Source: an uncultured Victivallales bacterium (GTDB lineage Bacteria > Verrucomicrobiota > Kiritimatiellia > UBA8416 > CAYOBW01). From it: a DNA stretch of 64,000 nt. Where the stretch lies: NCBI GenBank assembly GCA_964555035.1, contig CAZKRK010000002.1, positions 1,968-65,967 of the forward strand. The letters are read 5' to 3'. This document shows, in pieces, positions 21,815 to 58,433 of this stretch (positions are counted from its first letter, which is position 1; each line of letters begins with the position of its first letter). The translations under genes and the position numbers were made by a program. A model generated the notes under the pieces. That model was not told the origin of the DNA, made no database searches, and saw nothing but the letters and a program-made list of their open reading frames with translations.

Positions 21815-24800
21815 TCACTGCTCCACGCTGATACGATAGAATGCGGCGGGAATGCTATCCTGCCCAACCGTGTGAACGTTTTCGGGTGGCGTGGCGGGCA
21901 AGGGACCCGCCTTGGCATCGCCCAGCGGCTGTGCAAGATTCGTCCCCCGCCAGATACGATAGAAACGACCTGACGCACTGTGCCACCTCAAAACACAGTC
22001 CGATCCGCCGGCTTCCAGAGAGTCTATGGAGAAAACGGACATCGCGTTGGTGGGGTCTGTCCCCGCGTACCACTCCTCACGGTTGCTGGCCCCGTCCCCG
22101 TCGCGATCTTCGTCACTGCCGCCGTTTACGGCGTTTGTACTCCCGAAATGCGTGATCTCCCACGTGTCGGGCATACCGTCACCATCCCGGTCGCTGTTGT
22201 CAACTGCTGCCACCCCCGGGGTCGGGCCATTCGTGCTTGCCGCCCAGCTCACGCCGTCATTGGCGTACGCCAACAGTTCGACGCGCAAGAGCGAACTGCC
22301 GCCCCCATCGGGTTCGGTCGGCCACGGCGCTTTGCTATCGTAGTCGACCCACTCGACCGGGATCCACGGGATATCGCCCGTGACGGGATCCGGGTCCCCG
22401 GGGCGTTTGAGGGAGAGCCTTTCACCCGCATTGTTCAGCATGCCCTCATAGGGACTCAGAACACGCGTTCCCGAGGGGACCGTGTACATGTTCGTGAAAG
22501 CCGCGGCATTTGTCGGCGCCACGAGCAGCGTTTCGCCCGCGGCCATCACCACTCCCGTTGGCATGGAAAAGCGAACCGCACCCCGCAACCGCCACGTATT
22601 CGATGGGTACGAAACGTCGTAGAGCGGCACACTGGTGTCCGCCGTGTTGTGCAACTCAATGAATTCAAACGCGTTGCTGTCTGACGGATGATAATGGATC
22701 TCGCTGATTACCACCGGCCCGACCCGCGGGGCGGTATTCCCGCTTCCGGAACTCTGCGCACGCATGGGCGCGAAATCGACGGTGCCGTCGCGGCAAAGGT
22801 GGCGCCCGTACGTCTCGTCGCGCGGGGCCGCCTCGAACTCGCGGTAGTCGCGGTAGCCGGTCATAACCCCGGACTCACCCGAGGTCAGGCAGACGGCATC
22901 CCCCAACTCACTGAAAGCAAAGCCGTTGGTCGCGACGGCATTGGTGCCGAAATGGGCATGTTCGGTCAGCACCGCGTAGCTGCCGGGCAGAATCGCCGCC
23001 ACGTTGCTCACCGCGATCTTCGTTGGTTCGTCCTCGTCGTCGCTGAGAAACCAACCATTGATGTCGAGCGTGTTCGTGCCGGCGTTGTACAACTCGATCC
23101 AGTCACCGGGATTGTCATGGTCCTGGTGCGAGAGCACCTCGTTGATCACCAGGGAATCCGCACTGATGAACGCCTCGGGCGCCCTCCCGGGCGTTCCGCC
23201 CGTTCGGGCGCTGGCACGCCAGGACGAAGCGTTGCTCCAGGCGCCGGCATCGGCCTGGGCGTCGAGAAGCGTAAGCGAGAAATCATCGCCATCTGTCAGA
23301 ACATACCAGTCATCGTCGTAGCGGAAGGACTGGATGGTACGCTCGGCGCCGTCGCGCAGCGCCAGTGTTTCGCCCGCATCGTCGAGCGCACCCGGCAGGA
23401 AGAAGCGTCCCCTGTACTCGCCGGCGATGTTCGTCGTGTGCCAATTCGTGTGACGGCTCTTGAACCCATCGATATCCTGGACAAGAACAACGTACTCGCC
23501 GGGATCCAGGGTGGCGACATCGCCTTCCGTGAAGTCAAAGCGAATGCCGTTGGTGAACGCGATTCCGGCCAGGCCGACGGTCTGTGTTCCCGTGTTGAGA
23601 AGCTCGATGAACTCGTGACTGTTCGCCGTAAGGTTCGACTGCGCCGGACTGGGCGCGGCGGGATGGTACATGATTTCGGTCACGCGCAGAGTGGTAGGTG
23701 TGTCGATGGTAAAGACGGCCTCGGTCAGCGCGCTCCAGACACCTCCGGCGCCAAAGGCGCGGGCCTTGACCACGGTGTTGCGGGTGAGCGGAAGGGGGGT
23801 GCTGTAGAGGGCGCCCGCGATGCCGCCACCTATCGCGCGCGGGTCGCTGCCGTCGAGCGTGTAGTAGACGCTATCCGTGGACGAAATGCTCAGCGCGAAA
23901 CCGCTCGTGAAGAGTCCCCCGTGCTGCGCGAACACAGGCGCCGCCACGCCCGGGTACAACCCCGCTCCCTTCAGTTGGTTTAACACAATCTCTGTTCGGG
24001 ACTCATGAGCAGCCCTGATGTAGTGGTTGAGAATACTGTCAACGACGGGCAGCCAGTCATCGTCGCGCGTGTACGGATTGTGGATAGTTACGGCGTCACC
24101 CCAGCGAGCCGACTCCGCAATGACCGCGAGATCGATTTCGGCTTTGCGCTTGCTGAAGAGCGCTCCAGCGACGTCCGGCGTGAGCACGCCATCATTGAGG
24201 AAATGCCGATGAATGCGATCGGCAAGGCGCATCTTGTACTCGGTATTACCCGTTAGTTTTACATGCAGCCACCAAGGATTGAAGTTCTCTCGTTCGTCGA
24301 GTGACGGACCAAGCTGAACCGAGACACGATTGATGGTAAGGGCATCCGCTTGGCTCACCTCCAGCGAAAACTCCGAATCGTGGGCGATATACTGGAAACC
24401 GACCGGGTCGTTGCGATTGAACACCGCGATACAGTTGCGAGGCTGATCGACTGAGCCGGGAGGCCCGAGTGGTGAATCGCGGTTACCGGTGTAGAAGACG
24501 GTCAGCATGTAATCTATCACGTTGTCGACGTCAAGATAGCAGGGGTAGTCGGGGTTGCGTGTACCGTCCGCGTTCATGCCCTGCAGCCGGAAGTAGACGG
24601 CATTATCGGTGACCCCGTCGTCGATCCCATCCCTGAACCGACCGCAATAAGCGTTCGTAGTGCCATCTGCCGCATACATCCGCCCCGAGCCGGCGTCCGC
24701 CTTGACCGTGTCGTAGTCATCGGAATCGCCGCCGAAGTAGGATTCGCCGAAGCGTGCATCGGGGCGTTCCTCGGACTGGTACAGCCCCCAGTACACCCCG

Positions 24801-26773: not shown

Positions 26774-27450
26774 TTATGGCATTGACACTTCAAGTCGATA
26801 GTAGCGCTTGGGCACGGCGTTGGTGTCGATCATCATGTCATTCGTGCCGGATCCCGGCCGCGGGCCCTGCCCCAATATGTTGTCCCAGTTGGTCTGCATC
26901 AGGTCATCAATGAACTGCAGGACATACACCCGTCCCGTACTGGAATCGAAACGGACCGCCATGGAATTGGTCACCAGCAAACCCGTCAGACGGAGGTAGG
27001 AATTGGAGTCGGTTGGGTCCGTATCCGCAATGTACTCCTGAAGGTCCGAGTGTGGGTCACTGTCATGGGCCGTCGTGTCGTTGGCGTTGGTTGTGCTGCC
27101 CCAATACAGCAGCTCCCACGTATCGTCTATGCTGTCCCCGTCATCGGGCGGAAAGCCACCCGCATCTACTGTAAACCCGAAGTTGAGGTTCCCGACCCAG
27201 CAGCAGTTGGCGCCGGATTCCTCGGTGATGGTGCAGACGGTCTGCGGCGCGGTGAACACGTAATTATCGACGTCGGCGCCCAGACTATCACCGCCCACGC
27301 TCCAGGTACCCGAACTGAACCAGTCGAAATCAAGTCCCGTAAACCCGGCAAATGTCAGGCCGGTGGTCTCCGTTGCGGCAGCCCCATTCAGGCCGTAAAC
27401 CGCATTGCTCACTGAAAAGACCAAAGTCTCGTAGCTGTCGATGCGTTTCG
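26774..27450 (-). repeat. Direct DNA repeat (about 0.7 kb, high identity) encoding the C-terminal domain plus the end of the last module. The closest copy is at 32138-32830. Lower-identity copies lie at 36994-37450, 43486-43930 and 50250-50700.
   Basis: By eye, 27100-27300 and 32480-32700 are about 90% identical or better (example shared string: ccagcagcagttggcgccggattcctcggtgatggtgcagacggtctgcggcgc). The antisense ORFs in the track are near-duplicates: 27075..27263 versus 32376..32636, both ending QQQLAPDSSVMVQTVCGAVNT, and 27166..27351 versus 32539..32724. Confidence 0.7.
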
Positions 27451-31408: not shown

Positions 31409-31413
31409 AAAAA
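31409..31413 (-). other. Frameshift site: T5 homopolymer on the coding strand (AAAAA on the plus strand). The paralog implies T6.
   Basis: Frame N reads cag ccg ttt ttg ccc aga tca cgc tga. Frame C reads cca gcc gtt ttt gcc cag atc acg. Only about 10 codons are open in both frames, and they bracket the run. Confidence 0.6.
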
Positions 31414-32137
31414 CGGCTGGCTATTAGCGGCGGACCAATTGCCCCCGTCAAAGAGAGGGCTCGTCGTAACGAAATTATGGTCTGTTTTGTCGCTGTAGTC
31501 GACACCGCAGCCGTTGGCCGTGTGGTAGCCATTCTCCTGAAGCAGATGCGTGAAAGGCTTCATGCCTTCCGGAAGAACGATGTTCCTGCGCCGCTGGTCC
31601 TGCGTGTCCGTCCTCGTCTGGTAGACGCCAACTAACATCGCGTTGCGGCAAGGCGTGCAGGTCGATGAAGTCCCAAAGACTTCCGTGTACTTGACGCCCG
31701 CGGCAGCCAACCCGTCTATGTTGGGCGTCTGAACAGCCGGATGACCATAGCACGATTGCTGTTTGCCGATGTCCTCGGCCATGATCCATACGATATTGGG
31801 CACATCTCCCGCAGCTTTCGCGCCGCCGAACACGCACGTGGCCAGCGTTATGCCGAATGCGGCGGCATAGAGACAGCACCGCACGGCCTTGCCAAAGAAT
31901 CCAAATCTGTTTCCCATTCCTGTGCCAATCACCCTTCCTGCTTTCTCTCGTCACCCGCCGCTTCTTCGTCTTCGCCAACAGTCATGCCCATGCTTCACAT
32001 ACACCCGCTCTCCCTTATGCATACCTCAAAAGGACCACGTGCACAACCGTGCCGGTGGCAACGTATCGGCCAGAAACATGCACGTCGCGCAACTTCCCGC
32101 TTGCGTTGCAAATGGTGAGCGGCCACAGGACTCAATG

Positions 32138-32830
32138 TTACGGAAGCGGCGGCAATGAGACCTCAATCCGATAGTGTCGCTGAAGCGGGTCATTGGTATC
32201 AATCATCACATCATTCGCACCAGATCCCGATCTCGGCCCCTGCCCGGGCACATTGCTCCAGGTCGTCTGCATCAGGTCATCGATGAACTGCATCACGTAA
32301 ACGCGCCCCGTGCTGGAGTCGAAGTAGACCGCCACGGAGTTGGTCGCGAGTAGACCCGTCAGACGGAAGTAGGAATTGGAGTCGGTCGGGTCCGTATCGG
32401 TGATGTACTCCTGCAGATCGGTGTGCGGATCCGTGTCGGACTTAGAGGTGTCGGTGGCGGTGCTGGTATCGCTGAAGTACTTCAGCTCCCAGGCATCGTC
32501 TATGCCGTCCCCGTCGCCGGGCGGAGAGCCACCCGCATTCACCGTGAACTCGAAGTTGAGGTTGCCAATCCAGCAGCAGTTGGCGCCGGATTCCTCGGTG
32601 ATGGTGCAGACGGTCTGCGGCGCAGTGAACACGTAATTATCGACATCGGCGCCCAGGCTATCACCGCCCACGCTCCAGGTGCCTGCGTCGAACTGGTCGA
32701 AATCAAGACCCGTAAACCCGGCAAACGTTAGCCCGAGGGTCTCCGTTGCGGCGGCTCCATTCAGGCCGTAGGCCGCGTTTGTCACAGAGAACGTCAGCGA
32801 CTCGCCATTATCATCAATCCGCCCTCGGGT
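32138..32830 (-). repeat. Second copy of the direct repeat described at 26774-27450
   Basis: Same evidence as for 26774-27450; these are the 3' ends of adjacent giant genes. Confidence 0.7.
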
Positions 32831-35800: not shown

Positions 35801-36979
35801 GAAGTTAGTGACGTTCAGAACACCCGCACCGCTATTGATCACCGTCACGGCGCGATCGTCGGTCGTAGTGACCGCAATCACGCCAAAATCCAGTGGCGAG
35901 GTCGTAGAAATCGCAATATCGGGCTCAATGTCCGTAACCGTCCTCCCCCGCAGGGCCACATCCATCGGACTCGCCTCAACATCATCGGACCAGACATGCA
36001 CGGTTCCCGTGTGGGTCGCGTCGCTACTGCCCGCGCTGTAGCGTACTGTGATACTCGTCGACGACCCGACCGCAACACTGATCGGCATGCTTTCCAGAAC
36101 GCTGAAGGCATTCGATCCGCTGAAGGCGACGTTGGTTACGTTCAATACCCCCAACCCCGAATTGGTGATCGTCAGGATCAGGTCGCTGGTGGTGTTCGTC
36201 AGGATCGGCCCGAAATCCAGATCGTCGGGTGTCACGCCGATGACGGGAGACGCCGCAAGAACCACACTGAAATCGAAATTGATCTCGCCGGGCCGGGCAA
36301 ATCCTTTGGCTCCGGGTACCACGCTCATCGAGTTCACGGGCGTGCCGAAGACGGCCTCGGTGTGTGTGCCAACATCAAAGGTCTCGCCTCCGATGGTCGC
36401 ACTGTCGTTGCCCACTTCGAAGTCGCCACCCGCAAAGCCATCGAAGGTCAAGCCGGAAACACGATTGGTGGCTCCCCCGTCCAGGCTGTAAGCCGCATTG
36501 GCTACCGTGAAGGTCAGGGTCTCGTCGTTATCGATGCGACGCCGTTTGCTCGCATTATCGCCCTGACTTGCGACACCAAACTGCTCGGTATTGTTGTTCT
36601 TGGACGGCATCAGCAGCGGTCCCGGACCGGTCGCCGCCATCCAAACCTCCCAGGTCAAGACATCACCGCCGTCGCCGTTCAGTTGAAGGTCGGTGACACT
36701 GAAAGTCCATTTGAAGACGTCGTCTTTGTCGACGAGATCGTCCATCAGCCAGGAGCCCGTCGGCATATTTGCAATGCTCAGCGTGCCGTTGGCGCAAACG
36801 GCCGTGGGCCTACCGGCACCATCGTCGGCGGCGCCGAAATCAACGACGGAAACCGTTGTCGTAGTGGACTCCGCAAGAGCAACCACTCCGCCAATCCGCA
36901 ATAGGAGCAAACCTGCAAGCAACCCGCCGCGGGAAATGCTTGACCTCAAGAATGCACTATTCACCCTTCCGTCCTCCAC
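32138..36979 (-). CDS. Giant secreted protein (1613 aa) with an S1 sulfatase domain embedded mid-protein (about 33950-35263). Upstream of it: one novel module and five choice-of-anchor-D (ASH) domains. Downstream: a sulfatase-associated beta region, one ASH domain, a second novel module and the conserved C-terminal domain.
   Basis: Signal peptide-like GGLLAGLLLLRIGGVVALA. ASH repeats such as PDIAISTTSPLDFGVIAVTTTDDRAVTVINSGAGVLNVTNFTFSGADTGKFSVVSG...ATLHIWSNDSDSNPTNIVLQG. Sulfatase block: RPNIVLIYADDLGYTDLSCAGSEYY, GNCAPSRAALLTG, GKWHLGGD. C-terminus: DGDGIDDAWELKYFS...DTDPHTDLQEYITDTDPTDSNSYFRLTGL...RHYRIEVSLPPLP. Confidence 0.8.
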   Translation of the reverse strand: MEDGRVNSAFLRSSISRGGLLAGLLLLRIGGVVALAESTTTTVSVVDFGAADDGAGRPTAVCANGTLSIANMPTGSWLMDDLVDKDDVFKWTFSVTDLQLNGDGGDVLTWEVWMAATGPGPLLMPSKNNNTEQFGVASQGDNASKRRRIDNDETLTFTVANAAYSLDGGATNRVSGLTFDGFAGGDFEVGNDSATIGGETFDVGTHTEAVFGTPVNSMSVVPGAKGFARPGEINFDFSVVLAASPVIGVTPDDLDFGPILTNTTSDLILTITNSGLGVLNVTNVAFSGSNAFSVLESMPISVAVGSSTSITVRYSAGSSDATHTGTVHVWSDDVEASPMDVALRGRTVTDIEPDIAISTTSPLDFGVIAVTTTDDRAVTVINSGAGVLNVTNFTFSGADTGKFSVVSGTGAVGAEGVTSITVRYSPGSSAGNHSATLHIWSNDSDSNPTNIVLQGEAFVPAPDINIRTPSPLDFGQVGTSTTKTLAVKVDNTGVIDLDITNVTFSGTDTGKFSFVSGTGTIPVGGMSNLLIRFSPGTGLGTFSNATLHVLSNDPDTPSTNILLRGTGVASTPRPNIVLIYADDLGYTDLSCAGSEYYETPNIDHFATDAMVFTDAYAPAGNCAPSRAALLTGAYPPRTGIYTVNSADLGPLARRRLKPIGSGSKLTASHVTLAEALQANGYQTCHLGKWHLGGDPTPHGFDINIGGHSKGFPNSYFSPYQNVNLPDGLTGEHLPARLAEEACDWMETHKDTGPFFLNFCFYSPHGPWKSRYDIGQKYEAKPYNAEHFDVNYAGMVEAMDIAVGDILGYLDAAGLSSNTMVVFTSDNGTHKLHSNADPLRGGKSMLYEGGIREPFMVRCPGVTTGGTTNSTPVSQIDLYPTFLDYTSTEPPTGAGVQPLDGISLMPLLRAQAAPTRPIFWHFPTYIENSPGKDDPDSISIFFKGMPCTVMREGNLKLLEFFDTEHFELYDLSSDIGETNNLASTHPVVLEELVAKMQAWRTATEAPVPTELNPFWDPTTEHLPAGHVYSVPDPTDSTYRSVKGGVPGWWPTAPGPDFAAARTQQFVHAGSPKALPVAFANNGAGTLRLFWAPPIEIGGADSNYFSVASYSNNLESAANGHINLQLDTTLPGGGNRGYAVDLTIGCNDASDASEEVTVEVIYSNEPDIIAAPTALDFGTILTNTTSNLVVTADNVGSQPLSTTNFTFSGTNADRFSVVSGPGTVAVGASTNLTVRYTPGPDVGIHSATLHIWSDDPDSNPTNVVLTGTSLSSSIVTVHITDFGAANGGSGAPSATSDSGSLSIANTPTGEWFGPNDATDKDDTYKWTFTISNADLDGDGNDTDTLSWEVWITAAGGNGTVLKPSHKHEDDSMWFGVASSGDNNYSTRGRIDDNGESLTFSVTNAAYGLNGAAATETLGLTFAGFTGLDFDQFDAGTWSVGGDSLGADVDNYVFTAPQTVCTITEESGANCCWIGNLNFEFTVNAGGSPPGDGDGIDDAWELKYFSDTSTATDTSKSDTDPHTDLQEYITDTDPTDSNSYFRLTGLLATNSVAVYFDSSTGRVYVMQFIDDLMQTTWSNVPGQGPRSGSGANDVMIDTNDPLQRHYRIEVSLPPLP

Positions 36980-36993
36980 ATCTTCTGATTCTC

Positions 36994-39900
36994 TTACTCC
37001 GGCAACGAGACCTCAACGCGATAGAATCGCTGAAGTGAATCGTTGCTGTCGATCATCATGTCGTTTGTGCCGGTCCCCAGCCGCGGCCCCTGTCCCGGCA
37101 CGTTGTCCCAGTTGGTCTGCATCAGGTCATCGATAGACTGCATCACATACACGCGCTCCGTGCTGGAATCGAAGGTGACGGCCATGGAGTTGGTCCTTCG
37201 TAGATCGGTCAGCCGGAAATATGAGTTGGAGTCGGTCGGATCCGTGTCGGTAATGTACTCCTGCAGATCGGTGTGCGGGTCCGCGTCGGAGAAGGTGGTT
37301 TCGTTTGCGTTGGTCAAACCACTCCAGTACCTCAATTCCCACGCATCGAGAATTCCGTCTCCATCGGTGTCGCCAGCATCGACCGTTCCGGCCTGCCGGA
37401 CCTCGAGTTCAATGGCTCCCTCACCATCAATCTTCATTCCCAAGCCATTGTTGGCGGTCAAAGTTGCCTGCTTCAGGAAGAACCCATGATTCACAGCGCC
37501 GCTAATCCAGTTGCTGACAATGACCGTCACATCCACGCTGAAATTGGTGCCGGTGGTCGGTGCCCCCGAAGTCCTGATGGGTCCGGCATTGATCGTAGCG
37601 GTCGTCGCCGGCCCGAACGGATCGGCCGCCGTTGCCCAGTCCTCGGTCAGGCGAAGCACCTCCAAATCCGTATTGTACGATCCTCCGCCTTTATCATTCA
37701 AGGAGTATCCACGAAAAGAGAGCGTGGCGCCGGTAACCTGCCTTTCGCCGAGAGATGCTAAGTCGAACTTTACATAAGCTCTCACCCTTTTGTCCAGATC
37801 GCTGCCGTTGCCGCGCGTGTACAGCGTTGTTGTGAACTCGGCAGGATCACTGCCGCCAACATCGAACTTGTCGATGTTGTTGGAGTCATCGCCGGGGATA
37901 TCGCCGTGGCCGTCAACTGTATTAAACGCAGGCGACGTGAGAACCGTCGTGGTTCCCGTGGAGACGACGGCCTCACCCGTCACCTGATTGGTCCAGTCGG
38001 AATAGCCCGAGAAACTGCCGCCGAATTCGGCGTTTGTCGCGCCAACGCGGTAGAAAAAACGTGCGGATTGCACACCGGTGTAATGGGTCCAGTTCGTCGA
38101 TGCCGTCTCTTGATGCCCGGTTACGGCCGAACCCTCCTGGTAGTACTCCACCACGAATCCCGTCCCGTTGTCGTCCCAATCCACCCACTCCAGAGCGATA
38201 TCCGTGCCGTTTGACAAAATACCGCTGATAGCCGGGATCTGAGTCACCGAAAGATCGGTTACCACTCTGGTCGCCATCGATGTGTCGCTTCCGTCCACCT
38301 CATTGGTGGCTGTAAACCGGAACCAATACTCCGTATCAGCCACGAGCCCCGTAAGCCATGCGGTGACTATTCCGCCCGTGGTATCGGGTAGCGACGAGTT
38401 CGTGAACGCCCAACCACCAGTGGGAGCATTCGTCGTGTCCCACTCCAATGTTACGGTCGTATTCGACCCCGAAGGCACTTCCAACGTGGCGTAAACTTGC
38501 GCATTGGTGGTCGTCACCGTCTCGTTCGATACCCCCGCATCCGACCAGCCAGACACCGTCGGCGCCACGTATACCGTGTCACTATTGACCGCATCAATCC
38601 ATGTTTCCAGTTCGAGCTGGAGCCGTGCCGCCACCTCTGGCTCCGACGCGGCGATGTTGGTTGTCTCCTTGACGTCGGCAAGCAGGTCGTAGAGCTCGTA
38701 CGAACTCCCCCCGTTCTTACTGATCAGCTTGTATTGCTGTGTCACCCACGAGCGGTCATTACCAAACCGGAATCCGATCGGACTCAACCGAGAGGAACTG
38801 AACGTCTCGTTGGTGATGAGCGGCATCAGGCTGACTCCGTCGATCGGCTTCTGGTTCGTGACGCTCAGATCCAGAGCATCGATAATCGTGGGGTAGTAGT
38901 CGCTCGTCACGCAGGGATAATCGGTAGTCCGTGCGATAGGCACCTTCGCCGGCCACTCCAGCAAGCCCGGCACACGCACCCCCCCCTCATGCAGACTGCG
39001 TTTTCTCGCGCGCAAGCCCCCGGACTTGCCAGGCCCGTTCTCAGGCCCGTTATCGCTGCAGAACCACAGCATCGTGTTGGTGCGTACACCCAGGCTGTCG
39101 AGTTCCGTTCGCAATCGTCCGATTTGCGTATCCATACCCTGAATCGCATCCGTATAGGCATCGGGGGAGTCCGCGCCCGACACCTGTTCCGGATCCATCA
39201 CCGGGCGGTGCGGCGTGTGGAACCAGACCACCGCGAAGAATGGCTGGTTGCTTGCTACGGCATTCTGGATAAACGGGACAACGCGGTCCATCATCACCCT
39301 CGAATCGTCCCCGCTCATGTTGTTGGTAACGGCCACGGCTACCCCTTCACCCGTGCTGTTGGTCCAGGTAGCGGGATCAAGCGGCGGCGTCCAATAGTGT
39401 GTCCCATAGAAATTGGTGTCTGCAAAATCAACCGGCTCCGGTAACCCGTTTTGATCCATGCGCATCGGGTGGTAGGTGGGCACCTTCGCCTCGGTAGCAA
39501 AGCAGGTGTCGTATTGGTGATGCCAGGGCGGCGAGTAGTGGGCCGTCAAGCCGGGCTCACCACGGTTGGAGTCATTTCTTAGCGTCGTCAGCGTGCCGAG
39601 ATGCCACTTTCCGAAGTGAGCACATTGGTAGCCCGCATTGTCCAGGACTTCAGAAAGCGGGGTTTCGTCTCGCCCAAGGTGGCCCGCATTCGCGTTCTCA
39701 ACACCCACCCGAAACGGGTTGCGTCCGGTCAGGCAGCTCGCGCGTGTCGGGGAACAGACGGCACAGGCAGCATAGAAGCGGTCAAAGCGCAGCCCGCTCG
39801 ATGCCATGCTGTCAAGACTCGGTGTGTTGATCCAGCCATCGTTGTAGCTCGGATCGCCCCAGCCCATGTCATCCGCCATCATCAGAATGATGTTGGGATG

Positions 39901-40011
39901 GTTGGTTGCCGCCTGAGCAGCAAAGGGAACACAACACACCGACAGGAGCATTACAGGAAGCAACCACCTCGCCGCACAATATGATCTTTGCGTCCAAATC
40001 CACATAAACAT
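36994..40011 (-). CDS. Large secreted S1 sulfatase (about 1005 aa) with C-terminal fn3-like domains, an unknown beta domain and the conserved C-terminal domain
   Basis: Track ORF 36994..40074. The probable start is MFMWIWTQRSYCAARWLLPVMLLSVCCVPFAAQA (signal peptide) at 40011. Sulfatase block: PNIILMMADDMGWGD, CAVCSPTRASCLTG, GKWHLG. The C-terminal fn3-like stretch (TVTLEWDTTNAPTGGWAFTNSSLP...GFVVEYYQEGSAVTGH) is shared with 26774-31312. C-terminus: DGDGILDAWELRYWSGLTNANETTFSDADPHTDLQEYITDTDPTDSNSYFRLTDL...QRFYRVEVSLPE. Confidence 0.8.
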   Translation of the reverse strand: MFMWIWTQRSYCAARWLLPVMLLSVCCVPFAAQAATNHPNIILMMADDMGWGDPSYNDGWINTPSLDSMASSGLRFDRFYAACAVCSPTRASCLTGRNPFRVGVENANAGHLGRDETPLSEVLDNAGYQCAHFGKWHLGTLTTLRNDSNRGEPGLTAHYSPPWHHQYDTCFATEAKVPTYHPMRMDQNGLPEPVDFADTNFYGTHYWTPPLDPATWTNSTGEGVAVAVTNNMSGDDSRVMMDRVVPFIQNAVASNQPFFAVVWFHTPHRPVMDPEQVSGADSPDAYTDAIQGMDTQIGRLRTELDSLGVRTNTMLWFCSDNGPENGPGKSGGLRARKRSLHEGGVRVPGLLEWPAKVPIARTTDYPCVTSDYYPTIIDALDLSVTNQKPIDGVSLMPLITNETFSSSRLSPIGFRFGNDRSWVTQQYKLISKNGGSSYELYDLLADVKETTNIAASEPEVAARLQLELETWIDAVNSDTVYVAPTVSGWSDAGVSNETVTTTNAQVYATLEVPSGSNTTVTLEWDTTNAPTGGWAFTNSSLPDTTGGIVTAWLTGLVADTEYWFRFTATNEVDGSDTSMATRVVTDLSVTQIPAISGILSNGTDIALEWVDWDDNGTGFVVEYYQEGSAVTGHQETASTNWTHYTGVQSARFFYRVGATNAEFGGSFSGYSDWTNQVTGEAVVSTGTTTVLTSPAFNTVDGHGDIPGDDSNNIDKFDVGGSDPAEFTTTLYTRGNGSDLDKRVRAYVKFDLASLGERQVTGATLSFRGYSLNDKGGGSYNTDLEVLRLTEDWATAADPFGPATTATINAGPIRTSGAPTTGTNFSVDVTVIVSNWISGAVNHGFFLKQATLTANNGLGMKIDGEGAIELEVRQAGTVDAGDTDGDGILDAWELRYWSGLTNANETTFSDADPHTDLQEYITDTDPTDSNSYFRLTDLRRTNSMAVTFDSSTERVYVMQSIDDLMQTNWDNVPGQGPRLGTGTNDMMIDSNDSLQRFYRVEVSLPE

Positions 40012-40120
40012 GTTTCGAATTGCTCGTACTTGATATGCTATTCTGTGCTTCACCTTTCCCGTCCTGTTAATCATCTTTTCTCAGCGAATCATTACTTCAC
40101 CCAAACTTCCGCACAAACCA

Positions 40121-43100
40121 TCATGGGCGTTGGGGAGCGTTGGCCTTGATTCGATAAAACGCCTTCCTCTGCAATGAAGAATTGAGAAGTACGCGGGTCG
40201 TGTTTGTGTCCAGTGTGCCTCCTATGTGAGATCGGACAGTGCTCCACATTGCCGAAACAAGATTGGTCGAGCGCTCAATGTCGTAAAGGAAGCACTCGCT
40301 AGACTCGAAGCCGATGCCAAAGGCTTCACCGTTTGGGTCGGTTACCAACTCCGTGACCTGAAACGATCTGGGGTCAGGCACATCCCACAGGGGTTGAAGC
40401 TCACCAAGAGCCAGAAAGCCATCGGTGATGCTAAACTCGTCGATAAGGCCGTCGAAAGCACTGTCGATAACGCCCGAACCATTGAAATGCGCCCCAATAA
40501 CCAGCGGGCCATCGTTAGCCGTACCGGTGGACGTCGTGGAGTGCGTCTCCGCCCTGTCGTTGAGGGTGAAACGTACCGTGTTCGAGACGGAGTCCAAGGC
40601 GACACTGATATGGTGCCAGCCGGTGTCGTCGATCGAAAGAGTGGAGATCACGACCGCCGAACCGAGGTGTAGCGCAAGATTGCCGTAGGTCGTCGCATCA
40701 CCATAATTACCTGCTGCCGCCAGGAACATGTAATCCAGGTCAGTATCGACGCCACCGATAACGTTCTTTGTCGCAACCGGCATGCAACTGGCGGCGTTGG
40801 GGCCCGTGGGCAGCGTCTCACACTTCACCCAAGCCTCAATCGTGAATGGAGCGTTGCCGAAGTCGAGCTCACGCGCATCCGAAACCTGCACGTAGTTCTG
40901 ATCATCTCTCTCAAAATCGAGTGAAAGTGCATTGGTCTCACCCACGACGAAGTCGGACGTCGCGGGCACGTCGGAAGAAAAGACCGGCAGCGTACCGCCA
41001 TTACCGCTGTTCGCGCTGCCGTCGTTGCCGAACGGGAAGCGATCGACCAGAGTTTCAGCAACCCCGCCGACGACACCGTCCTCGAAACGCAGCAGAGTAC
41101 GGTCACCGAGAAATGCATATGGATCGCCATTATCGACTCGCTCCTGCATGAGGATTTCTTCCAGGTGCTGGCGCACGAGGGCGTAGGCGGGCCAATTGGC
41201 AAGGTTGGGAGCGCCATGCTCGGGCAGGAGTTCAAAGGGATTCTCATGCAAATCGAATAGCTGCGTGACCTGGGTTGCGTCGGCACCGACGTCATACTTG
41301 ATCATTTTGAAGCGCCCGTCGGTGACGGCACGCATACCCGGCTTGCTACCGCCGGAGTAAAAGCCGTAGAGATGATCACGGTGGGTTGCACCGGGGTTTT
41401 CAAGCACAGCCCCAAAGCTGCGCCCGTCGTTGCCGTCAATGGTGGCAGGGAGATCCAGACCTACGAGATCACAGAACGTGGGAAATGTATCATGGAGGTA
41501 AATCAGTGCATCGGTTTCGGTCCCGGGAGCGATACCGGGGCCGCGCACGACATATGGTACGCGCCAAGTGTGTTCGTAGAGATTCTGCTTACCCTGGAGA
41601 CCGTGGCGGCCGATCGCGATCCCGTGGTCCGTAGTGAAAACGATGTAGGTGTTGTCAAGGACGCTGTCGTCCTGGTTGCCGTCACCATCGGGGTCATCCA
41701 ATCTCGCAAGGACGCGGCCGATCTGTCGGTCAATCCAGTCCACGCAGGCAAAATGGCGCCCGACTTCATTGCGAATCACCGCCTCGGTGCGATACTTACC
41801 GACCCCGCTGACGCTTCGCTCGTCACGGACATTGAGGTGGCCGTGGTCGAACGGGTGCGCTGGATAGGTCAACGGCGTGCACGAAAGGTGGCTGAGAGGT
41901 AGCGGGGGGGCATCAGGATCGAGCACCAGGCTGTCCGGACTGGTGGTATTGATGCAATGGTAGCGGCCGGCCAGGTCCGGGCTGGTTCGGGCGCTCCGTG
42001 TGTCATGCGGGTGGGAGAAACCGAGATAGATCAGGAACGGCTTATTGCCCGGACGATGATTGGCCTGCCAGTGGTCGATGTAATCGATGCCGTGATCAGC
42101 GTGCCACTCGCTGCCATGGCCATCAGTGTTCCCGCGCTTGGTGACATCGTTCCTGATGTTGAACTCGTCGTTCGCGGTGTCATAGGTGTTTGCGTACTTG
42201 CAGGTACGATACGTGGCGTACGGAATATCGTTCGTTCCGCTGCGCACCCCACGATTGAAGATGCCGGGAAAAGTCACCGCTCCGGTCACGCCTTCGGTAC
42301 GTTGCCAACTGTTCTTGCCGCTCATAATGCAGGTGCGTGACGGCGCGCAGACCCCCGCTTTAGTAGAACCCATCAGGCGCATCTGATGAAAAAGCATGCC
42401 CTCATCAGCAAGCCGGTCGATGTTAGGCGTGTCCACAACATACGGGTTGCCCGCGGCATCCGTTTCGGAAGGTTCAGTGCGACGATACGCGCCAACTGAG
42501 TAGGTGTCCTGGTCGTCGGTGATGATAAACAGGAAATTGGGCGGCGCGACGGCTGGATACGGCACGGCAGACACCTCGCTACTGACAGCGGACTCCGCAC
42601 TGTCCACGTTAACGGCAGACAGCACGTAGTAGTAAGAAACACCGTTTGTGAGACCGGTGTCGGTATGGGTGCTCGCTGTCGGGGTCGCAATCTCGCTGTA
42701 CGGGCCGCCGGCAGTTACGGATCGCCACACGATGAAATTCGAAAACCCGTATTGGGTATTGTCATTCCAGTCCAAAACAACGGCTTGATTGACTGGTGTC
42801 GCAATAAGATTACTGGGCACATCGGGAGGCTCCACCGATCCCAGCTTGGTTACCAGAATCGCATTGAAATGCACGTTGCCGAAACCATTGACGGCATGGG
42901 TCAGCAACTGAGTACTGCCGGAGGCCGTAAACGAGCCAACAGAAAACTCTCCCCAACCGCTACCATCCGACATGATGTCAACATTGCCGGGAGAAGCCTC
43001 CCCGTCACCGTACGTCATAACGCGACCGCTGGTGCTGCTACGCTGATCGTTGTAGAAGACCTGAATCAGGTAGTTTGTGCCTGTCGTCAGCCCGCCAATA

Positions 43101-43485: not shown

Positions 43486-46400
43486 TTACGGCCGTTCAAC
43501 CTCAAGCCGATAGTACCGCTGGGGAACGGCGTTGGTGTCGGTCATTGTGTCGTTCGGTCCCAGGCCGAAACGCTGCTCCTGGCCCGGCACGTTGCTCCAA
43601 ACCGAACCCTGTAGATCGTCGATGAACCGCATTCTGTACAACCGACCGCTGCTCGAATCGAAACAGACACGCACACCGTTCGTGTACCCTATGCTCTTGA
43701 TACGGAAGTACGATGCTGCATTGGTCGGATCGGTATCCGCGATGAACTCTTGCAGATCGGTGTGCGGGTCCGTGTCTGAAGATGTTGTCTCGTCCGCATT
43801 TGTCACGCTGTTCCAATGCTCCATCTCCCATGCATCGAGAATCCCGTCACCGTCGGAGTCCGGCAACAGCTCATCGGCGCCGATATCGGGCGCCATGCCC
43901 ATGATCCGTGTCTCGCCATCCATATCGTGAGCACCGTTATCGCCGCGGCTACGGCCGGCGTCTCGGGCGCCCGACGACGCCTGGAGATGGCCGTTCGTGG
44001 CCGACACTAACAGCGGGTCCACATCGTACGTCCCGTTCGTCTCGTGATTCCGATTCCGCCACCAGCTCCACGCATAGCCCTCGTTGCTGCCCCAACGGAA
44101 GGACGGGCCACCGTGCGTCGCATCATCGCAGTAGTACCAGTTGTAGTCGAACCGGGTGTTCGCCGGCGTGCTGCCGCTGCCGCCCGAACCGCCGACATAC
44201 ACGGCATCGCCGCCTTCGTTCTTGAGCGCGACTATCAGGTTGTTCTCGAACTCGCAGTCCGAGATGTGCCACTGCAGGCATATCTCGCCGGTGTAGTCCT
44301 TTGCCGTGTCGTTGTGGTAGAGCGTGTTGCCGATGAAGGTGCAGTACTGCGCATTACCCCGGCCACTGTCGTATCCACCAAGGAAGATGCCGCCGGTGTA
44401 ATTGCGGCAGATGAGGTTGTTCCGGACCGTGATGTAGGACGCGTACTTGCCACTGTGTTCGGAAGCCACTTCCAGCCCGATATCGCAATCGTGGATCGTA
44501 TTGCGCTCGATGACGATCTGCTTGCCGCCATCGACATAAATGCCGCCCGCGGAACGGTCGTAGCTGCCCCCATCCCGGTAGGCAGGATTGCCCGTGGTGT
44601 TGATATTGTAGACCAGGTTATCGGTACAGATCCCGTTCCTGGCCTGGTCGAGCGCTCCATCGGAGCAGGTGCCCTCGTGGCCGATGAAGTCGATGCCGAT
44701 GTTGTCGTTATCATGCACCGTACAACCGGTCACTTCGAAGCCGTCGATATTGCCGTTGAGCACGAGCGCTTCCGACGAACCGAGCTTGCAGTCGTGGATC
44801 TCGACGTTTCGGACCACCAGGTTGGTGATCGGATTCGAGGCGTGGTCGCCATAGACCCCGACGCCATGTGCATCGGCTCCAGTAACATAGCTGCCGCCGC
44901 CGTCGTAGTTGGACTCAATGCGGTGGATCTTCAGATTCCTCAGTCGTATAAACGAAGAGTCACCGTTGATGTACACGCCCATCGGCACCCTCCACCGCGT
45001 GGCGGTAATGAAATCGCGAATCTCCAACCCGTCCAGGGTGATGTAGTCCTGGCTGTTGAACGTGATCAGACCGTCCGTATCGCCGACGGTAATCCCCGTC
45101 CCGTCGATAACGGGAGTCTCGCCCGCATAGTTGGTAACGGTGATGTAGCCCCCGGCAGCCGACCCGGACCGGTACAGTGTAACCCGCTCGTTATAGACCC
45201 CGCCGCGGATGTAAAGCGTATCGCCGGCCATCACGTTGCTCACGCCATACTGAACAGTTGCCCACGGCGTGGCCAGCGAACCATCCCAGGTATTGTTGCC
45301 GTTGGTGGCCACGTAGTACCCCGTGGCACGCACTGTCGCCGCGCCCGTCAGTGGGATGTCCTTCGGGTTGTTGCTCGAGTCGTCGGACCAGATCGACAGT
45401 ATCGCCGCATGCGTCGCCGCATGGGTGGGTGCGTACTGAACCGTGATATTCGTCGATCCGCCCACAGCAACTGCACCGGTGCCGCTCAAGACGCTGTATT
45501 CGTTGGTGAACGCATCAAACGTGAAGTTCGTGATGTTCAACACCGCATCGCCCGAGTTCGTCACCATCACGCTCAGGTTGCTGGTCGAGCCGACCGTGTT
45601 CGTCCCGAAGTCCAGCGAGGAAGGCGTCACTCCGATGTGCGGAGCGCGTACCGGCGCGAAGGTAGCCACGACCGTCCGCGCCTGGTCCATGGTCAGATCA
45701 AGCGGGCTATCGTTCGTGTTGGCTGGCGGCACGTCGCCCATCCAGCCTGCGAACAGGTAGCCGCCATCCGGCGTAGCCGTGATCCCGGTCGCCGCTACCC
45801 CGTTGGTATACCAGCCGTTCACCACTCCGCCGTTCACCGACCCGTTCGCACCCGCGGACACCGCCAGCTCGTACTCGTTGGTCCACTGCCACGTCAGCGT
45901 GGAGTCGGCCGTGATGGTGAAGGTCGTGCTGTTGGCGGTCCCACTGGCCGGCGTGCTGCCCGTGCCCGCCCAGCCCGTGCAGGCCCAGCGCTGCCCGGCG
46001 GCCTCGTCGGCCGGTGTCGCCACGCTGTTGGTGACACTCGCTCCGTAGTCGTTGGTATGCACGCCCACCGTCGGATTCGGCGAACCGTGTGCCGATACAA
46101 TCTCCAGCGTATTGGACGCGAGCGGCGCGGGTGGGCCCGTTCGGAGTTGGAAGTCGAAGCCGCCGCCTCCCCTGCCGCTTCCCGCAGTTACCTCGGTAAG
46201 CAGGGATTGGAGGTTGGTGAACACCAGGCCGGGAAAGTACGCTCCGGATCCTCCAGTAGAGAACCCCTGTCCGCCGACGGTACCGGCGGACTGCTTGAAA
46301 AGATGGAAGTCGGCTCCGGTGAAACCGAGGAACTCACCGGTCCGGTCGGTGGCGGCGGCACCGTTCAGACCGAAGGTCACCGTGGGCACCGTCAGCGTCA

Positions 46401-50249: not shown

Positions 50250-53200
50250 TTACGGAACCGCCGGCACCGACACCTCGACACGGTAGGACCGCTGAGGCGG
50301 ATCGCTGCTGTCGATCATCATATCGTTTGTACCCAATCCCAACCGCGGCCCCTGCCCGGGTACGTTGCTCCAGCTCGGCCACAGTAGGTCGTTTATGAAT
50401 TGCAGAGTGTAGACACGGCCGGTGCTGGAATCGAAGGTGACGGCCATGGAATTCGTCATCACCAGCCCCGTCACCCGGAAGAACGAGTTGGAGTCGGTCG
50501 GGTCCGTATCGGCGATGTACTCCTGCAAGTCGCTATGCGGATCCGTGTCGAAGCGCGATGTGTCGTCCGCGGTGGTCGTATTCCCCCAGTACCGAAGCTC
50601 CCATGCATCGAGTATCGCGTCACCGTCCGAGCCGGGACCCCCTGGCGGCTGAACATGAAACTCGAAATTGAGGTTGCCCGGCTTCGCGTTCCCTGTCCCG
50701 GATGGTCTGAAGATCGACAGCGCCTGCTGCGGAGCGCTGAACACGGCGTCGGTCGTGTCGACGGTGAACGTATCCCCGCCGTATGTCCACGGGGACGTGT
50801 TGTAGTTGTCGAAATCGCCGCCTGTGAACCCTGCGAAGGTCAGTCCATCGGTCTGGTCGGCCACCGCGCCGTTCAAGCCGTACAGGGCATTCGTCACCGT
50901 GAAGGTCAGGGTCTCGTTCCAGTTGAGCCGTTTCCTGTTGGCCAGATTCTCGCCGGTACTGGCAACCGTGAACCACTTGTCGTTGGCGTTCTTCGCCGGA
51001 CAGCAGTCCGTCTTGGTCGACGTTGCCGTGATCCAGACCTGCCACGTCAGCGTGTCCGTATCGTTGCCGTCATCGTCGAGGTTGGCCCCGGTAACCGTAA
51101 ACGTCCACTTGTGCGGGTTGGGGCGAGTAGGGACATCGTTGTTCAGCCATTCACCCGTGGGCGTGTTGGCGATGCTCACCGATCCGTTGTCGCAGCTCGC
51201 GGCGGCGGCGCCGGCAGGCGTGCCACTGGCCCCGCCGAAATCCGTGATGTGAACCACGGACGCCAGCGTTGCCCGCGCTTCGCCGTCGAGCGTGACGGTT
51301 GCCGGATTGGTGTTCACGGCATCGGACCATACGTTCAGCGTCCCGCTATGCATAGCCACACCCGTTGGCGCGTAGCGCACGGTGACGTTCGTCGAGTTCC
51401 CGGCGGCGAGGCTGAATGGTGTGCTCTCCAACACGGCAAACGCATCTGAGCCAGTGAGGGTGAAATTGGTAACGGTCAATGCGGCGCCACCTGTGTTTGC
51501 CACCGTCACCGTCAAGTCATGGGGCGAACCGACCAGCCGGGGCCCGAAATCGAGCGACGACGGGACAAGACCGATGTAGGGATCGTTCGGGAGTTCCCTG
51601 AGCTGGTAACCCATCAGCAGGATCCACTTGGTTCCGGTCATATCGATATCCTGCGCCACCCCACTGGCCGTGAAGCTGCCCTTCACGGCATAGGCCGGTC
51701 TGTGGGTTATTGCCCCGCTGCCGGCACCGGTGCCGGCATGCGTTATCGTGTCTCCTCCCCGGTTGGGAATATCCGTGTGGAAGAGCTGGACCGAATACAC
51801 CGTCCCGGCGGTCAGCCCCGTCACGGTCAGCGTACCGGCAAGCTCCACGTTCATAAACCTGTCCATCATGGCTTCGAAATCCCCCCCGATGCCCCCCTCG
51901 CTGTACGTGTCCCCATTGACGTTAACGACATTCCACCCGGGATCGACTGACGTCTGCGCCATGAACGTGACGCCATTGACCGTGCGATTGTCGCCTGCAC
52001 TCGGCGTGTAGTTGACGGCCCTGACAAGCGTGCCGACCGTGCTCACGACACTGTCCCCATTGGCCGCGATTCCCTCCGGCGCGCTCCACGTGATCGTCGT
52101 CGTCTGCATCGCCTGCGCACTCAGTGCAATGTTTGTGGGGTTGCTATCCGGATCGTCGGACCAAACGGACAGAGTGCCGGTGTGTGTGCCCACGCCTGTG
52201 GGCATGTATCGCACGGCAAAGGCAGTCGACCCGCCAGCCGCAACGGTGCCGGTGGTGACGGCGACGGAGAATTCGTTCGAACCGTCGATCGTCATGTTGG
52301 TGATGCTCAACGGCCCCGTGCCGCTGTTGGCCACGATCAGGTCCAAGGTGTTGGTTGTGTTGACTGTTCTGACACCAAAATCGAGGGGAGGTACGTTCGC
52401 AATGGAGATGTCGGGCGTCGGGACATAAGACGATCCCTGCAACAGAACGTTGGTCACGGGCGTGTCCGTGTCATCAGACCCGATGTGCAGTGTCCCCGTA
52501 TGCGAGCCCGCGTTCGCGCCCGGGGTGTACGCCGCGGTGATGTTGGTCGATGCGCCCACATCAACCACGCCGGACCCACTCGTCACGGAGAACACGTTCG
52601 ATCCACTGAATGTGAGATTGGTGATACTCAGTGGGCCTGTCCCCATGTTGGCCACCGTAATGTCCAGGGAGTTGGTCGTGTTGACGGGGATCGGCCCGAA
52701 GTCAAGGGGCGATCCGACCGTGACAGCGATCTCGGGAGTCGGAACCACGCCCTCGCCCTGCACCGTGATATTCGTGGGGTCAGTATCAGGATCGTCCGAC
52801 CATATCGACAGGACGGCGGTATTGGAAACCAGAGCCGTCGGGGCATACTGCACCGAGAGGTTGGTCGATGTGCCGGAAGCCAGCGTGCCGGTGCCCCCAC
52901 TGACAACAGAGAAGACTCCGGGAGTTGCTCCGCCCCATGTCAGGTTCGTAATGCTCAGCAGCGCCGACCCGACATTCCGCACGGTCACATCCAGCGTCCG
53001 GGTCAGGTTGGTGCCAACCTCGCCGAACTCCAGGGGGGACTCGGTAATGATGGCAATGTCGGGCTCCGGCTCCTTCCCCATCTGGAAACTGATGTTGCTG
53101 AGACGATAACTCGCACCGGATTCCGCGCCGGCTGTCAGTACCGATTGCGCTGAACTGAAGGTTACCTTGAATGCATCGTTGCTGACCGTCTCGCCGCCCA

Positions 53201-58211: not shown

Positions 58212-58433
58212 CGTCCGTCCCCCAGTTTCTTCCGCAGCCAATCCCGTTCGCCGTAACACAGTTGACACCTTTTTCCTCGTTGCAGGCCGGTACCCCTTTG
58301 CGCGGATAGCCTCTATTTAAGGCGAAACACGCTACCGTCCTTGTGCGTAGTCGTAACCACCGTCAGATTGTTCAGATCGGTCAGAAACATACCGATGATG
58401 CAATGCTTGCTAAACATGCCATCCCCTCCAAGG

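What the first reader, a model, noticed from the sequence alone, without database searches (positions are those of the whole stretch)
36994..37450. Shared C-terminal unit: dockerin / TSP3-like calcium-binding motifs followed by a beta-sandwich ending Y-R-[VLI]-E-V. Candidate sorting / anchoring / complex-assembly domain.
Six proteins (stops at 26774, 32138, 36994, 43486, 50250 and, more divergent, 21815) end with D-G-D-G-I-[LD]-D-A-W-E-[LM]-x-[YH]-[WF] ... D-T-D-P-H-[TS]-D-L-Q-E-[YF]-I-[AT]-D-T-D-P-T-[DN] ... F-R-[LV]-T-G-L ... A-V-x-F-D-S-S-T-G-R-V-Y-x-[LM]-Q-F-I-D-D-L ... V-P-G-Q-G-P-R ... Q-R-x-Y-R-[VLI]-E-V. A seventh (stop at 40121) keeps only the terminal beta part (...LYDIERSTNLVSAMWSTV...RKAFYRIKA). 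The first half resembles dockerin / thrombospondin-type-3 calcium loops (D-x-D-G-x-x-D followed by a helix). The last strands resemble the terminal strands of T9SS C-terminal sorting domains (..G..V......DL.......YfvkV). Neither assignment is secure and the rest of the locus points to a PVC-type genome, where T9SS is absent. Identical placement at the extreme C-terminus of seven neighbouring cargo proteins is what one expects of a sorting or assembly tag.
Basis: partly seen in the sequence, partly recalled or inferred. Interest (0 to 1): 0.8.

Follow-up and report, generated by a model that had tools for sequence, protein, structure and literature searches.

The report
Uncurated C-terminal tag on secreted PVC enzymes
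Seven neighbouring giant secreted enzymes end in the same ~125-residue module (two calcium-loop repeats packed on a small fibronectin-like sandwich), which belongs to a large family found mainly in PVC-group bacteria, has no curated model, and sits where related proteins carry known anchoring signals, so it is probably a surface-anchoring or assembly tag.

Summary
Seven tightly packed minus-strand genes (five sulfatases, a CotH/lamin-tail protein, a metallopeptidase-like protein) end in one shared unit. An HMM built only from outside sequences finds all seven and nothing else in the window.

The beta part defines a large family: 5,973 clusters at 50% identity. Named members are mostly Verrucomicrobiota, Kiritimatiellia and Lentisphaerae, including cultured Pontiella.
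- In 145 of the 150 best hits, and 71 of 75 genomic ORFs, it ends at the protein's C-terminus, usually as ...FYR-x-x-V-x-[LV]-P.
- The cargo is very diverse.
- Homologues of one cargo protein end in this tag, in PEP-CTERM or in dockerin.

This supports a C-terminal anchoring or assembly tag, but I found no partner and there is no experimental evidence. About 15% of the best hits carry tandem copies, which fits a binding module better than a secretion signal.

Verdict: a new variant of a known kind; interest 0.6.

The parts
36994..37371 (-). C-terminal unit of the 1026-aa sulfatase (the flagged copy), residues 902-1026 plus the stop codon
   Evidence: AF2 model of exactly this segment: pLDDT 93.5, pTM 0.84.
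37225..37371 (-). TSP3 half of the flagged copy: DTDGDGILDAWELRYW (loop plus helix) and a degenerate second repeat DADPHTDLQEYITDTDPTD
   Evidence: PF18884 at 19.1 bits, E 0.0012, below the cut-off of 25. Two short helices predicted at residues 9-16 and 35-40 of the unit.
36994..37224 (-). FN3-like beta sandwich of the flagged copy, ending FYRVEVSLPE
21815..22192 (-). Divergent copy of the unit on the 1649-aa lamin-tail/CotH protein, ending FYRISVEQ
   Evidence: PF18884 at 47.5 bits in 2 stretches. External HMM E 8e-13. 85 of 120 listed homologues of this protein end in the same tag.
26774..27145 (-). Unit on the 1512-aa sulfatase remnant (split gene), ending YYRLEVSMP
32138..32518 (-). Unit on the 1613-aa sulfatase with Ig-like repeats, ending HYRIEVSLPPLP
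40121..40375 (-). Beta part only (no TSP3 half) on the 1115-aa sulfatase/LamG protein, ending FYRIKANAPQRP
   Evidence: External HMM E 1.8e-8.
43486..43860 (-). Unit on the 2234-aa metallopeptidase-like/PATR protein, ending YYRLEVERP
   Evidence: A choice-of-anchor-Q-like segment lies directly upstream.
50250..50630 (-). Unit on the 1738-aa sulfatase with Ig-like repeats, ending SYRVEVSVPAVP

Best explanation
The unit is a self-contained C-terminal module of about 125 residues. Two acidic TSP3-type loop-helix repeats, presumed to bind calcium, pack onto a roughly 75-residue FN3-like sandwich. The sandwich's last strand and the free C-terminus are conserved as FYR-[VLI]-x-V-x-[LV]-P-COOH.

I think it acts as a non-covalent surface-retention or assembly tag.
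1. The giant enzymes are exported by their N-terminal Sec signal peptides.
2. They are carried across the outer membrane by a general pathway.
3. They are then held at the cell surface, or in a shared multi-enzyme assembly, because the module binds a common receptor (a surface protein or a surface glycan).

In function it would resemble a dockerin, an SLH domain or another cell-surface anchor more than a cleaved secretion signal.

Shown here: the module's existence, its compact predicted fold, its terminal position, its cargo diversity, its exchange with other anchors in homologous cargo, and purifying selection.

Inferred only: calcium binding, surface location, the receptor, and the absence of cleavage.
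For: 1. Terminal position.
- In 145 of the 150 best family representatives the last copy ends within 8 residues of the C-terminus, and in 126 it ends at the last residue.
- 71 of 75 tagged ORFs in 60 genomic loci run straight into the stop codon.
- 109 of 132 scored proteins end in Pro, mostly LP or VP, at a fixed distance of 6 residues after FYR.

2. Cargo diversity. Tagged proteins include sulfatase, LamG, FG-GAP, DUF11, Calx-beta, CBM96, BNR, beta-helix, RCC1, reprolysin, GH5 and M6 domains.

3. Anchor swapping.
- Of the 120 listed homologues of the lamin-tail/CotH cargo, 85 end in this tag.
- Others end in classical PEP-CTERM (P0335, P0337, P0343, P0368) or dockerin (P0341, P0342, P0351, P0358) at the same place.
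- Tagged proteins match NCBIfam choice-of-anchor Q (8 of 55), choice-of-anchor D (5 of 55), a 'T9SS-dependent M6-like' family (2) and a 'T5SS/PEP-CTERM-associated repeat' (1).

4. Selection. The unit is 59-73% identical between window proteins whose sulfatase domains are 26-38% identical, or which share nothing else. dN/dS is 0.11-0.24 with near-saturated dS.

5. One compact fold. AF2 gives pLDDT 93.5 and pTM 0.84 over TSP3 plus sandwich together.

6. Export context. All six intact tagged proteins have N-terminal signal-peptide-like sequences (read). Three short sulfatases in the same locus also have them but lack the tag, so the tag separates two classes of exported enzyme.

7. Tandem copies, up to 5-8 per protein, in some members. 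This is typical of binding modules that gain avidity, not of secretion signals.
Against: - I identified no receptor or partner. The only recurrent 'neighbours' in 60 loci were alternative-frame artefacts.
- Tags within one genome are not generally more alike than tags from different genomes (median 35% against 34%). There is therefore no sign of species-specific co-evolution with a partner, as seen for dockerins.
- The FN3 fold is generic and often serves as a spacer.
- Calcium binding is inferred from repeats that fall below the Pfam threshold in most window copies.
- There are no localisation or proteomic data. I found no paper describing the module.
Confidence: 0.45

Rival explanations
1. 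It is a true sorting signal. A dedicated, still undescribed outer-membrane export or attachment machinery in PVC bacteria recognises the folded C-terminal sandwich, as the T9SS recognises its C-terminal domain. The tag may then be cleaved and the cargo attached covalently.
For: - Strict terminal placement and a conserved free C-terminus.
- Diverse Sec-dependent cargo.
- Cargo families that depend on T9SS or PEP-CTERM in other phyla.
- Size and beta-sandwich nature comparable to T9SS C-terminal domains.
Against: - 22 of the 150 best hits carry two to eight copies and a few have internal copies, which is unusual for secretion signals.
- No candidate machinery was seen in the window or in the flanks.
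- No homology to any known sorting-domain HMM.
Confidence: 0.2
2. It is an ordinary FN3-like domain with TSP3 repeats and no targeting role. It would be a structural stalk, a stabilising cap, or a module binding substrate glycans, which simply tends to sit last in large extracellular proteins.
For: - Weak sub-threshold hits to FN3-class Pfam models in tandem-copy members.
- Tandem and internal copies.
- No partner found.
- TSP3 repeats are common in many extracellular bacterial proteins.
Against: - A spacer or substrate-binding module would not be expected at the very end in 95% of cases with a conserved terminal dipeptide.
- It would not be expected to alternate with PEP-CTERM or dockerin in homologous cargo.
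- It sits on non-carbohydrate-active cargo such as RCC1, FG-GAP, CotH and peptidases, which argues against one shared substrate.
Confidence: 0.25
3. It is a divergent member of the T9SS C-terminal sorting domain family, or a true dockerin paired with a cohesin.
For:
- Terminal placement.
Against: - PF18962, TIGR04183 and PF00404 give no hit at E<=10.
- The family lies mainly in Verrucomicrobiota, Kiritimatiellia and Lentisphaerae. T9SS is known from the Bacteroidota lineage (my own knowledge, not tested here).
Confidence: 0.03

Closest known systems
Type I dockerin (PF00404) of cellulosomal enzymes
   Same: - A small module, usually C-terminal, on many different secreted enzymes.
- Built from Asp-rich calcium-loop-plus-helix motifs.
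- Occupies the same position as this tag in homologues of the lamin-tail/CotH cargo.
   Different: - No HMM match.
- Here the loop-helix repeats are TSP3-type and are fused to an FN3-like sandwich that dockerins lack.
- No cohesin-like partner was seen.
- No within-genome homogenisation of tags.
T9SS type A C-terminal sorting domain (PF18962 / TIGR04183)
   Same: - A 70-100-residue beta sandwich at the extreme C-terminus of diverse Sec-exported cargo, with many copies per genome.
- Some tagged cargo belongs to a family that NCBI names T9SS-dependent.
   Different: - No HMM match.
- Preceded by TSP3 repeats.
- Tandem copies occur.
- Different phyla.
PEP-CTERM / exosortase sorting signal
   Same: - Found in environmental Gram-negative bacteria on large extracellular proteins.
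- Replaces this tag in some homologues of the same cargo.
   Different: PEP-CTERM is a short motif plus a transmembrane helix and a basic tail. This unit is a folded, soluble 125-residue module with no hydrophobic helix.
Fibronectin type III superfamily (e.g. tissue factor, C. thermocellum Fn3-like 3mpc)
   Same: - Weak Tissue_fac and fn3_SORL1 hits in tandem-copy relatives.
   Different: - No curated FN3 model reaches its threshold.
- Its own conserved signature (SS..R.YTL ... W.NVPGQ ... FYR.xV.LP) and a terminal-position rule that ordinary FN3 domains do not have.
Thrombospondin C-terminal signature domain (type 3 repeats wrapped on a C-terminal beta sandwich)
   Same: Calcium-binding type 3 repeats immediately followed by, and predicted to pack on, a beta sandwich at the extreme C-terminus of a large extracellular protein. 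The comparison rests on my own knowledge of the thrombospondin structures; the packing here is inferred from pTM 0.84.
   Different: - Only two repeats.
- The sandwich is a 75-residue FN3-like domain, not an L-type lectin domain of about 230 residues.
- No sequence relationship beyond the repeats.

Membership tests
Bacterial TSP3 repeat (Pfam PF18884) | HMM score at or above the gathering threshold of 25 bits | tested here: inconclusive
   Four tails carrying the first half were scanned (genes ending at 21815, 32138, 36994, 43486). Met in the protein ending at 21815 (47.5 bits, two stretches). Below threshold at 36994 (19.1) and 43486 (17.5). No hit at 32138. The tails ending at 26774 and 50250 were not scanned. 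In 55 tagged proteins from other genomes, 33 hit the TSP3 part of NF042425 and 15 hit NF047639 at E<=0.001; the hits examined individually were far below cut-off.
Dockerin type I (Pfam PF00404) | HMM match to the duplicated F-hand calcium-binding segment | tested here: not met
   No PF00404 hit at E<=10 in any of the five tails scanned.
Dockerin type I (Pfam PF00404) | A cohesin-bearing partner protein in the same genome | not testable with these tools
   Only a 64-kb window is available. No cohesin domain among the window ORFs scanned.
T9SS C-terminal sorting domain (PF18962 / TIGR04183) | HMM match | tested here: not met
   No hit at E<=10 in Pfam or NCBIfam.
T9SS C-terminal sorting domain (PF18962 / TIGR04183) | Beta-sandwich domain at the extreme C-terminus of Sec-exported cargo | tested here: met
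   This feature is shared with other tag families and does not define membership on its own.
T9SS C-terminal sorting domain (PF18962 / TIGR04183) | T9SS machinery (PorU, PorV, Sov/SprA etc.) in the genome, and cleavage of the tag | not testable with these tools
   No whole genome and no proteomics are available.
PEP-CTERM | PEP motif, hydrophobic helix and Arg-rich tail at the C-terminus | tested here: not met
   The sequences end ...YRVEVSLP(E) with no hydrophobic helix. No NCBIfam PEP-CTERM hit.
Fibronectin type III superfamily | FN3 fold | tested here: met
   [not shown]
Fibronectin type III superfamily | Match to a curated FN3 sequence model (PF00041 and relatives) above threshold | tested here: not met
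   No hit in the window copies. Only sub-threshold Tissue_fac and fn3_SORL1 hits in tandem-copy relatives.
T1SS RTX-type C-terminal secretion signal | No N-terminal signal peptide; GGxGxD nonapeptide repeats upstream of the C-terminal signal | tested here: not met
   The tagged proteins have N-terminal signal-peptide-like sequences and no RTX repeats (read directly).
Amuc_1099 pilus-like system protein (NF042425) | Score at or above 50 bits over the 321-position model | tested here: not met
   12.7-26.6 bits in the window tails and 15.7-23.5 bits in four tails from other genomes, covering only profile positions about 101-158 (the TSP3 stretch).

The most novel reading that the evidence does not exclude
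The TSP3-FN3 unit is the address tag of an undescribed surface-display or secretion pathway specific to PVC-group bacteria. It would be a functional counterpart of the T9SS C-terminal domain or of PEP-CTERM. In this locus it would gather five giant sulfatases, a CotH-type protein and a metallopeptidase, all apparently encoded in one operon, into a cell-surface multi-enzyme assembly for sulfated glycans (a cellulosome-like 'sulfatasome').
Probability: 0.2. Interest if true: 0.85.

Novelty: new variant of a known kind. Interest (0 to 1): 0.6.

Why it matters
Kiritimatiellia, Lentisphaerae and Verrucomicrobia are leading degraders of sulfated algal and host glycans. They encode hundreds of sulfatases per genome, yet how their very large extracellular enzymes are placed on or outside the cell is essentially unknown.

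A recognisable C-terminal tag would help in three ways:
- It would let annotators separate surface or extracellular enzymes from periplasmic ones directly from sequence. This locus holds both classes.
- It would give a handle, as pull-down bait or reporter fusion, for finding the receptor or machinery.
- It would fill a gap in the catalogue of bacterial C-terminal anchors for a whole superphylum.

The family is large (about 6,000 clusters at 50% identity). It matched no model in the Pfam or NCBIfam copies searched. It occurs in a cultured, growable organism (Pontiella), so the hypothesis can be tested directly.

Tried and rejected
1. A word-indexed homology search with the single unit of the flagged protein found nothing. 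The family appeared only with a profile search of all representatives.
2. The first AF2 run, on the seven window sequences alone, was unusable (pLDDT 47). It was repeated with a 108-sequence alignment.
3. The profile search through the word index returned only short fragments. These were useful for the alignment but not for architectures.
It was rerun with 10 closer sequences, so the 60 loci sample only the 'DTDPT[ND]..S' subfamily.
5. The AFDB Foldseek library was not available.
6. Foldseek against the PDB gave nothing at E<=1e-3. The PDB sequence profile search gave only a spurious match to a TEV-site tag.
7. I looked for a partner gene among the flanks of 60 loci by all-against-all clustering. 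The only recurrent clusters examined were low-complexity alternative-frame ORFs overlapping the tagged genes.
8. I tested for genome-specific homogenisation of tags, as dockerins show. It was not seen.
9. The Amuc_1099 link was rejected, because the hits cover only the TSP3 stretch and are far below threshold.
10. Seven literature searches, and text searches within two of the papers found, turned up no description of the module.
11. Two metagenome scans for relatives of the proteins with the short hydrophobic tail found nothing.
Full report
**What is in the window**

The region 21.8-55.5 kb holds seven large minus-strand ORFs separated by only 9-59 bp. The exception is an 825-bp gap upstream of the ORF at 26774-31312, where that gene is split.

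| ORF | Length | Pfam content |
|---|---|---|
| 21815-26764 | 1649 aa | Lamin-tail / CotH / CHB_HEX_C |
| 26774-31312 | 1512 aa | Sulfatase remnant plus Ig-like repeats |
| 32138-36979 | 1613 aa | Sulfatase plus Ig-like repeats |
| 36994-40074 | 1026 aa | Sulfatase (the flagged gene) |
| 40121-43468 | 1115 aa | Sulfatase plus LamG |
| 43486-50190 | 2234 aa | M11/reprolysin-like, PKD, PATR, Ig-like |
| 50250-55466 | 1738 aa | Sulfatase plus Ig-like repeats |

- The rest of the window encodes a GH29 fucosidase, GH59, GH43-like proteins and three short sulfatases. This is a locus for sulfated-glycan degradation.
- All six intact large proteins start with signal-peptide-like sequences, read directly.

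- All seven proteins end in the described unit.
- Five copies are 59-74% identical to the flagged one. The copies at 21815 and 40121 are 26-28% identical, and the latter lacks the first half.
- A profile built only from 52 sequences from outside the window hits the extreme C-terminus of all seven: E about 1e-34 to 1e-35 for five, then 8e-13 and 1.8e-8. Nothing else in the six-frame translation scores.
- Between window proteins the unit is the best-conserved segment. It is 59-73% identical where the sulfatase domains are 26-38% identical or where nothing else aligns.
- dS is about 1-2.6 and dN/dS 0.11-0.24. The copies are old and under purifying selection.

**What the two halves are**

First half:
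- It is a pair of bacterial TSP3 repeats (PF18884).
- The score is 47.5 bits in the protein ending at 21815, 19.1 and 17.5 bits (cut-off 25) in two close paralogues, and no hit in a third.
- Dockerin (PF00404) gives nothing at E<=10.

Second half:
- It has no hit in Pfam or NCBIfam at E<=10, including the T9SS and PEP-CTERM models.
- It has no relative among PDB sequences.

Structure:
- With a 108-sequence alignment, AlphaFold2 models the whole 125-residue unit at pLDDT 93.5 and pTM 0.84. It shows two short helices followed by a sandwich of five main strands plus two short bridges.
- The high pTM suggests one compact body rather than beads on a string. I could not inspect the coordinates.
- Foldseek finds nothing significant.
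- Tandem-copy relatives give weak, sub-threshold hits to Tissue_fac and fn3_SORL1.

The beta part is therefore a divergent FN3-superfamily domain that none of the curated models searched captures.

**The family**

- A profile of the beta part, searched against 1.84 billion representatives, finds 5,973 proteins at E<=1e-3 and 732 at E<=1e-10.
- In 145 of the best 150 the last copy ends within 8 residues of the C-terminus, and in 126 at the very last residue. 22 of the 150 have two to eight copies.
- The consensus is Y-[IV]-A-D-T-D-P-T-N-x-x-S-x-F ... F-x-S-S-x-x-R-x-Y-T-L ... L ... W-x-N-V-P-G-Q ... G-x-G-G-x-D ... D-T-N ... F-Y-R-x-x-V-x-[LV]-P.
- 109 of 132 scored proteins end in Pro, and 96 have exactly six residues after FYR.
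- The subfamily on lamin-tail/CotH proteins ends instead in acidic residues, for example ...FYRLTVEDE.
- A genome scan gave 60 loci from Verrucomicrobiota, Kiritimatiellia (including cultured Pontiella sulfatireligans F21), Lentisphaerae/Victivallales and Tichowtungia.
- In those loci, 71 of 75 tagged ORFs run straight into the stop codon. Several loci have adjacent tagged genes.
- Source names elsewhere include Akkermansiaceae, Limisphaerales, Phycisphaerae, Bryobacteraceae and Binatia.
- The window matches an ENA metagenome scaffold. Its proteins have their closest relatives in a Victivallales MAG (the pre-tag region of the flagged sulfatase) and in Pontiella (51-52% identity across the full length of the CotH protein). 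The host is a PVC bacterium of the Kiritimatiellia/Lentisphaeria neighbourhood.

**Why I read it as a tag**

- The cargo is extremely diverse.
- It includes families that NCBI names for their association with alternative C-terminal anchors:
  - choice-of-anchor Q in 8 of 55 and choice-of-anchor D in 5 of 55;
  - a T9SS-dependent M6-like protease family;
  - a T5SS/PEP-CTERM-associated repeat.
- In the window's metallopeptidase-like protein a choice-of-anchor-Q-like segment lies directly before the unit.
- The most direct evidence comes from the 120 listed homologues of the lamin-tail/CotH protein. 85 end in this tag, four end in textbook PEP-CTERM, four end in dockerin-type sequences, and others stop after the last lamin-tail domain.
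- The same cargo therefore uses this unit where other lineages use recognised anchors.
- Within the window, three short sulfatases with signal peptides lack the tag. The tag thus marks a subset of exported enzymes: the giant multi-domain ones.

**Which kind of tag**

I favour a non-covalent retention or assembly module (0.45) over a cleaved secretion signal (0.2). My reasons:
- The domain also occurs in tandem arrays, as binding modules do.
- It is a stable, compact fold joined to presumed calcium-binding repeats.
- No machinery is in sight.

A plain structural or glycan-binding FN3 domain with no targeting role remains possible (0.25). Points in its favour:
- The fold is generic.
- No partner was found in the flanks.
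- Tags are not homogenised within genomes.

Membership of the T9SS sorting-domain or dockerin families is not supported (0.03).

**Novelty and limits**

The unit matches no model in the Pfam (2025) or NCBIfam (June 2026) copies, and no solved structure. It appears in none of the papers my searches returned. These searches cover only open-access text and a few phrasings, so prior description elsewhere cannot be excluded.

All functional statements are inference from comparative sequence data. Calcium binding, surface location, cleavage and the receptor are untested.

The census figures come from the best 150 of 5,973 hits and from a pattern-limited genome scan. They describe the query-like subfamily best.

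Noticed in passing
window 3553-4227, 16926-17678, 56193-58268, 58434-63947 (all minus strand; the motif is at the low-coordinate end of each): Four other proteins in the window, which lack the TSP3-FN3 unit and share no C-terminal domain, end in a short hydrophobic tail plus a basic residue at the very C-terminus...PRPGTVLLIR...SLWGTVLLVR...KPEGMVLMVR...AAPTLFIVK. It looks like a second, very short C-terminal tag and is too short to be a PEP-CTERM helix. The pattern occurs in 4 of 104 window ORFs, against 0 of 1,166 ORFs in 60 loci from other PVC genomes. Two metagenome scans for relatives found nothing.
   Followed up: partly
window 26774-31312 and 31393-31932 (minus strand): The sulfatase ending at 26774 starts inside its catalytic domain (profile positions 204-301). 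The missing N-terminal 179 aa, including the signal peptide, is a separate ORF upstream. The gene is therefore split or frameshifted. An ENA metagenome assembly makes the same two gene calls.
   Followed up: partly
window 15313-16953, 18873-20483, 20420-21781 (minus strand): Three short sulfatases (453-546 aa) in the same locus have signal-peptide-like N-termini but no C-terminal unit. The locus therefore holds tagged giant enzymes and untagged short ones side by side.
   Followed up: partly
window about 43870-43989 (minus strand), residues about 2068-2107 of the 2234-aa protein: A segment matching the NCBIfam choice-of-anchor Q domain (23.4 bits, cut-off 25) lies immediately upstream of the unit. 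The same domain passes E<=0.001 in 8 of 55 tagged proteins from other genomes.
   Followed up: partly
window about 55295-55380 (minus strand), N-terminus of the 1738-aa sulfatase: Directly after the signal peptide there is another TSP3-like acidic loop plus helix (FVDTDGDSYCDEAEAYFGSATNDP). This protein therefore carries such motifs at both ends (read).
   Followed up: no
L005 3163-6261 and 6248-9631 (Victivallales MAG); also L006, L010, L017, L025, L029, L032, L059: Adjacent genes in other PVC genomes also carry the tag. The first L005 protein shares the flagged sulfatase's pre-tag region almost word for word (GLGIKTDGVGAIELVVTQAGTVD...), so it is probably its orthologue.
   Followed up: partly
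window 16926-17678 (minus strand): A 250-aa secreted protein with a strong HpiC1-cyclase-like (carbohydrate-binding-module-like) domain (E 9e-36) sits among the sulfatases. It carries the short GTVLLVR tail.
   Followed up: no
window 17743-18840 (minus strand): A thioredoxin/AhpC-TSA-like protein with a lipoprotein-like N-terminus (...LVAGCSK) is embedded between sulfatase genes. Its role in the locus is unclear.
   Followed up: no
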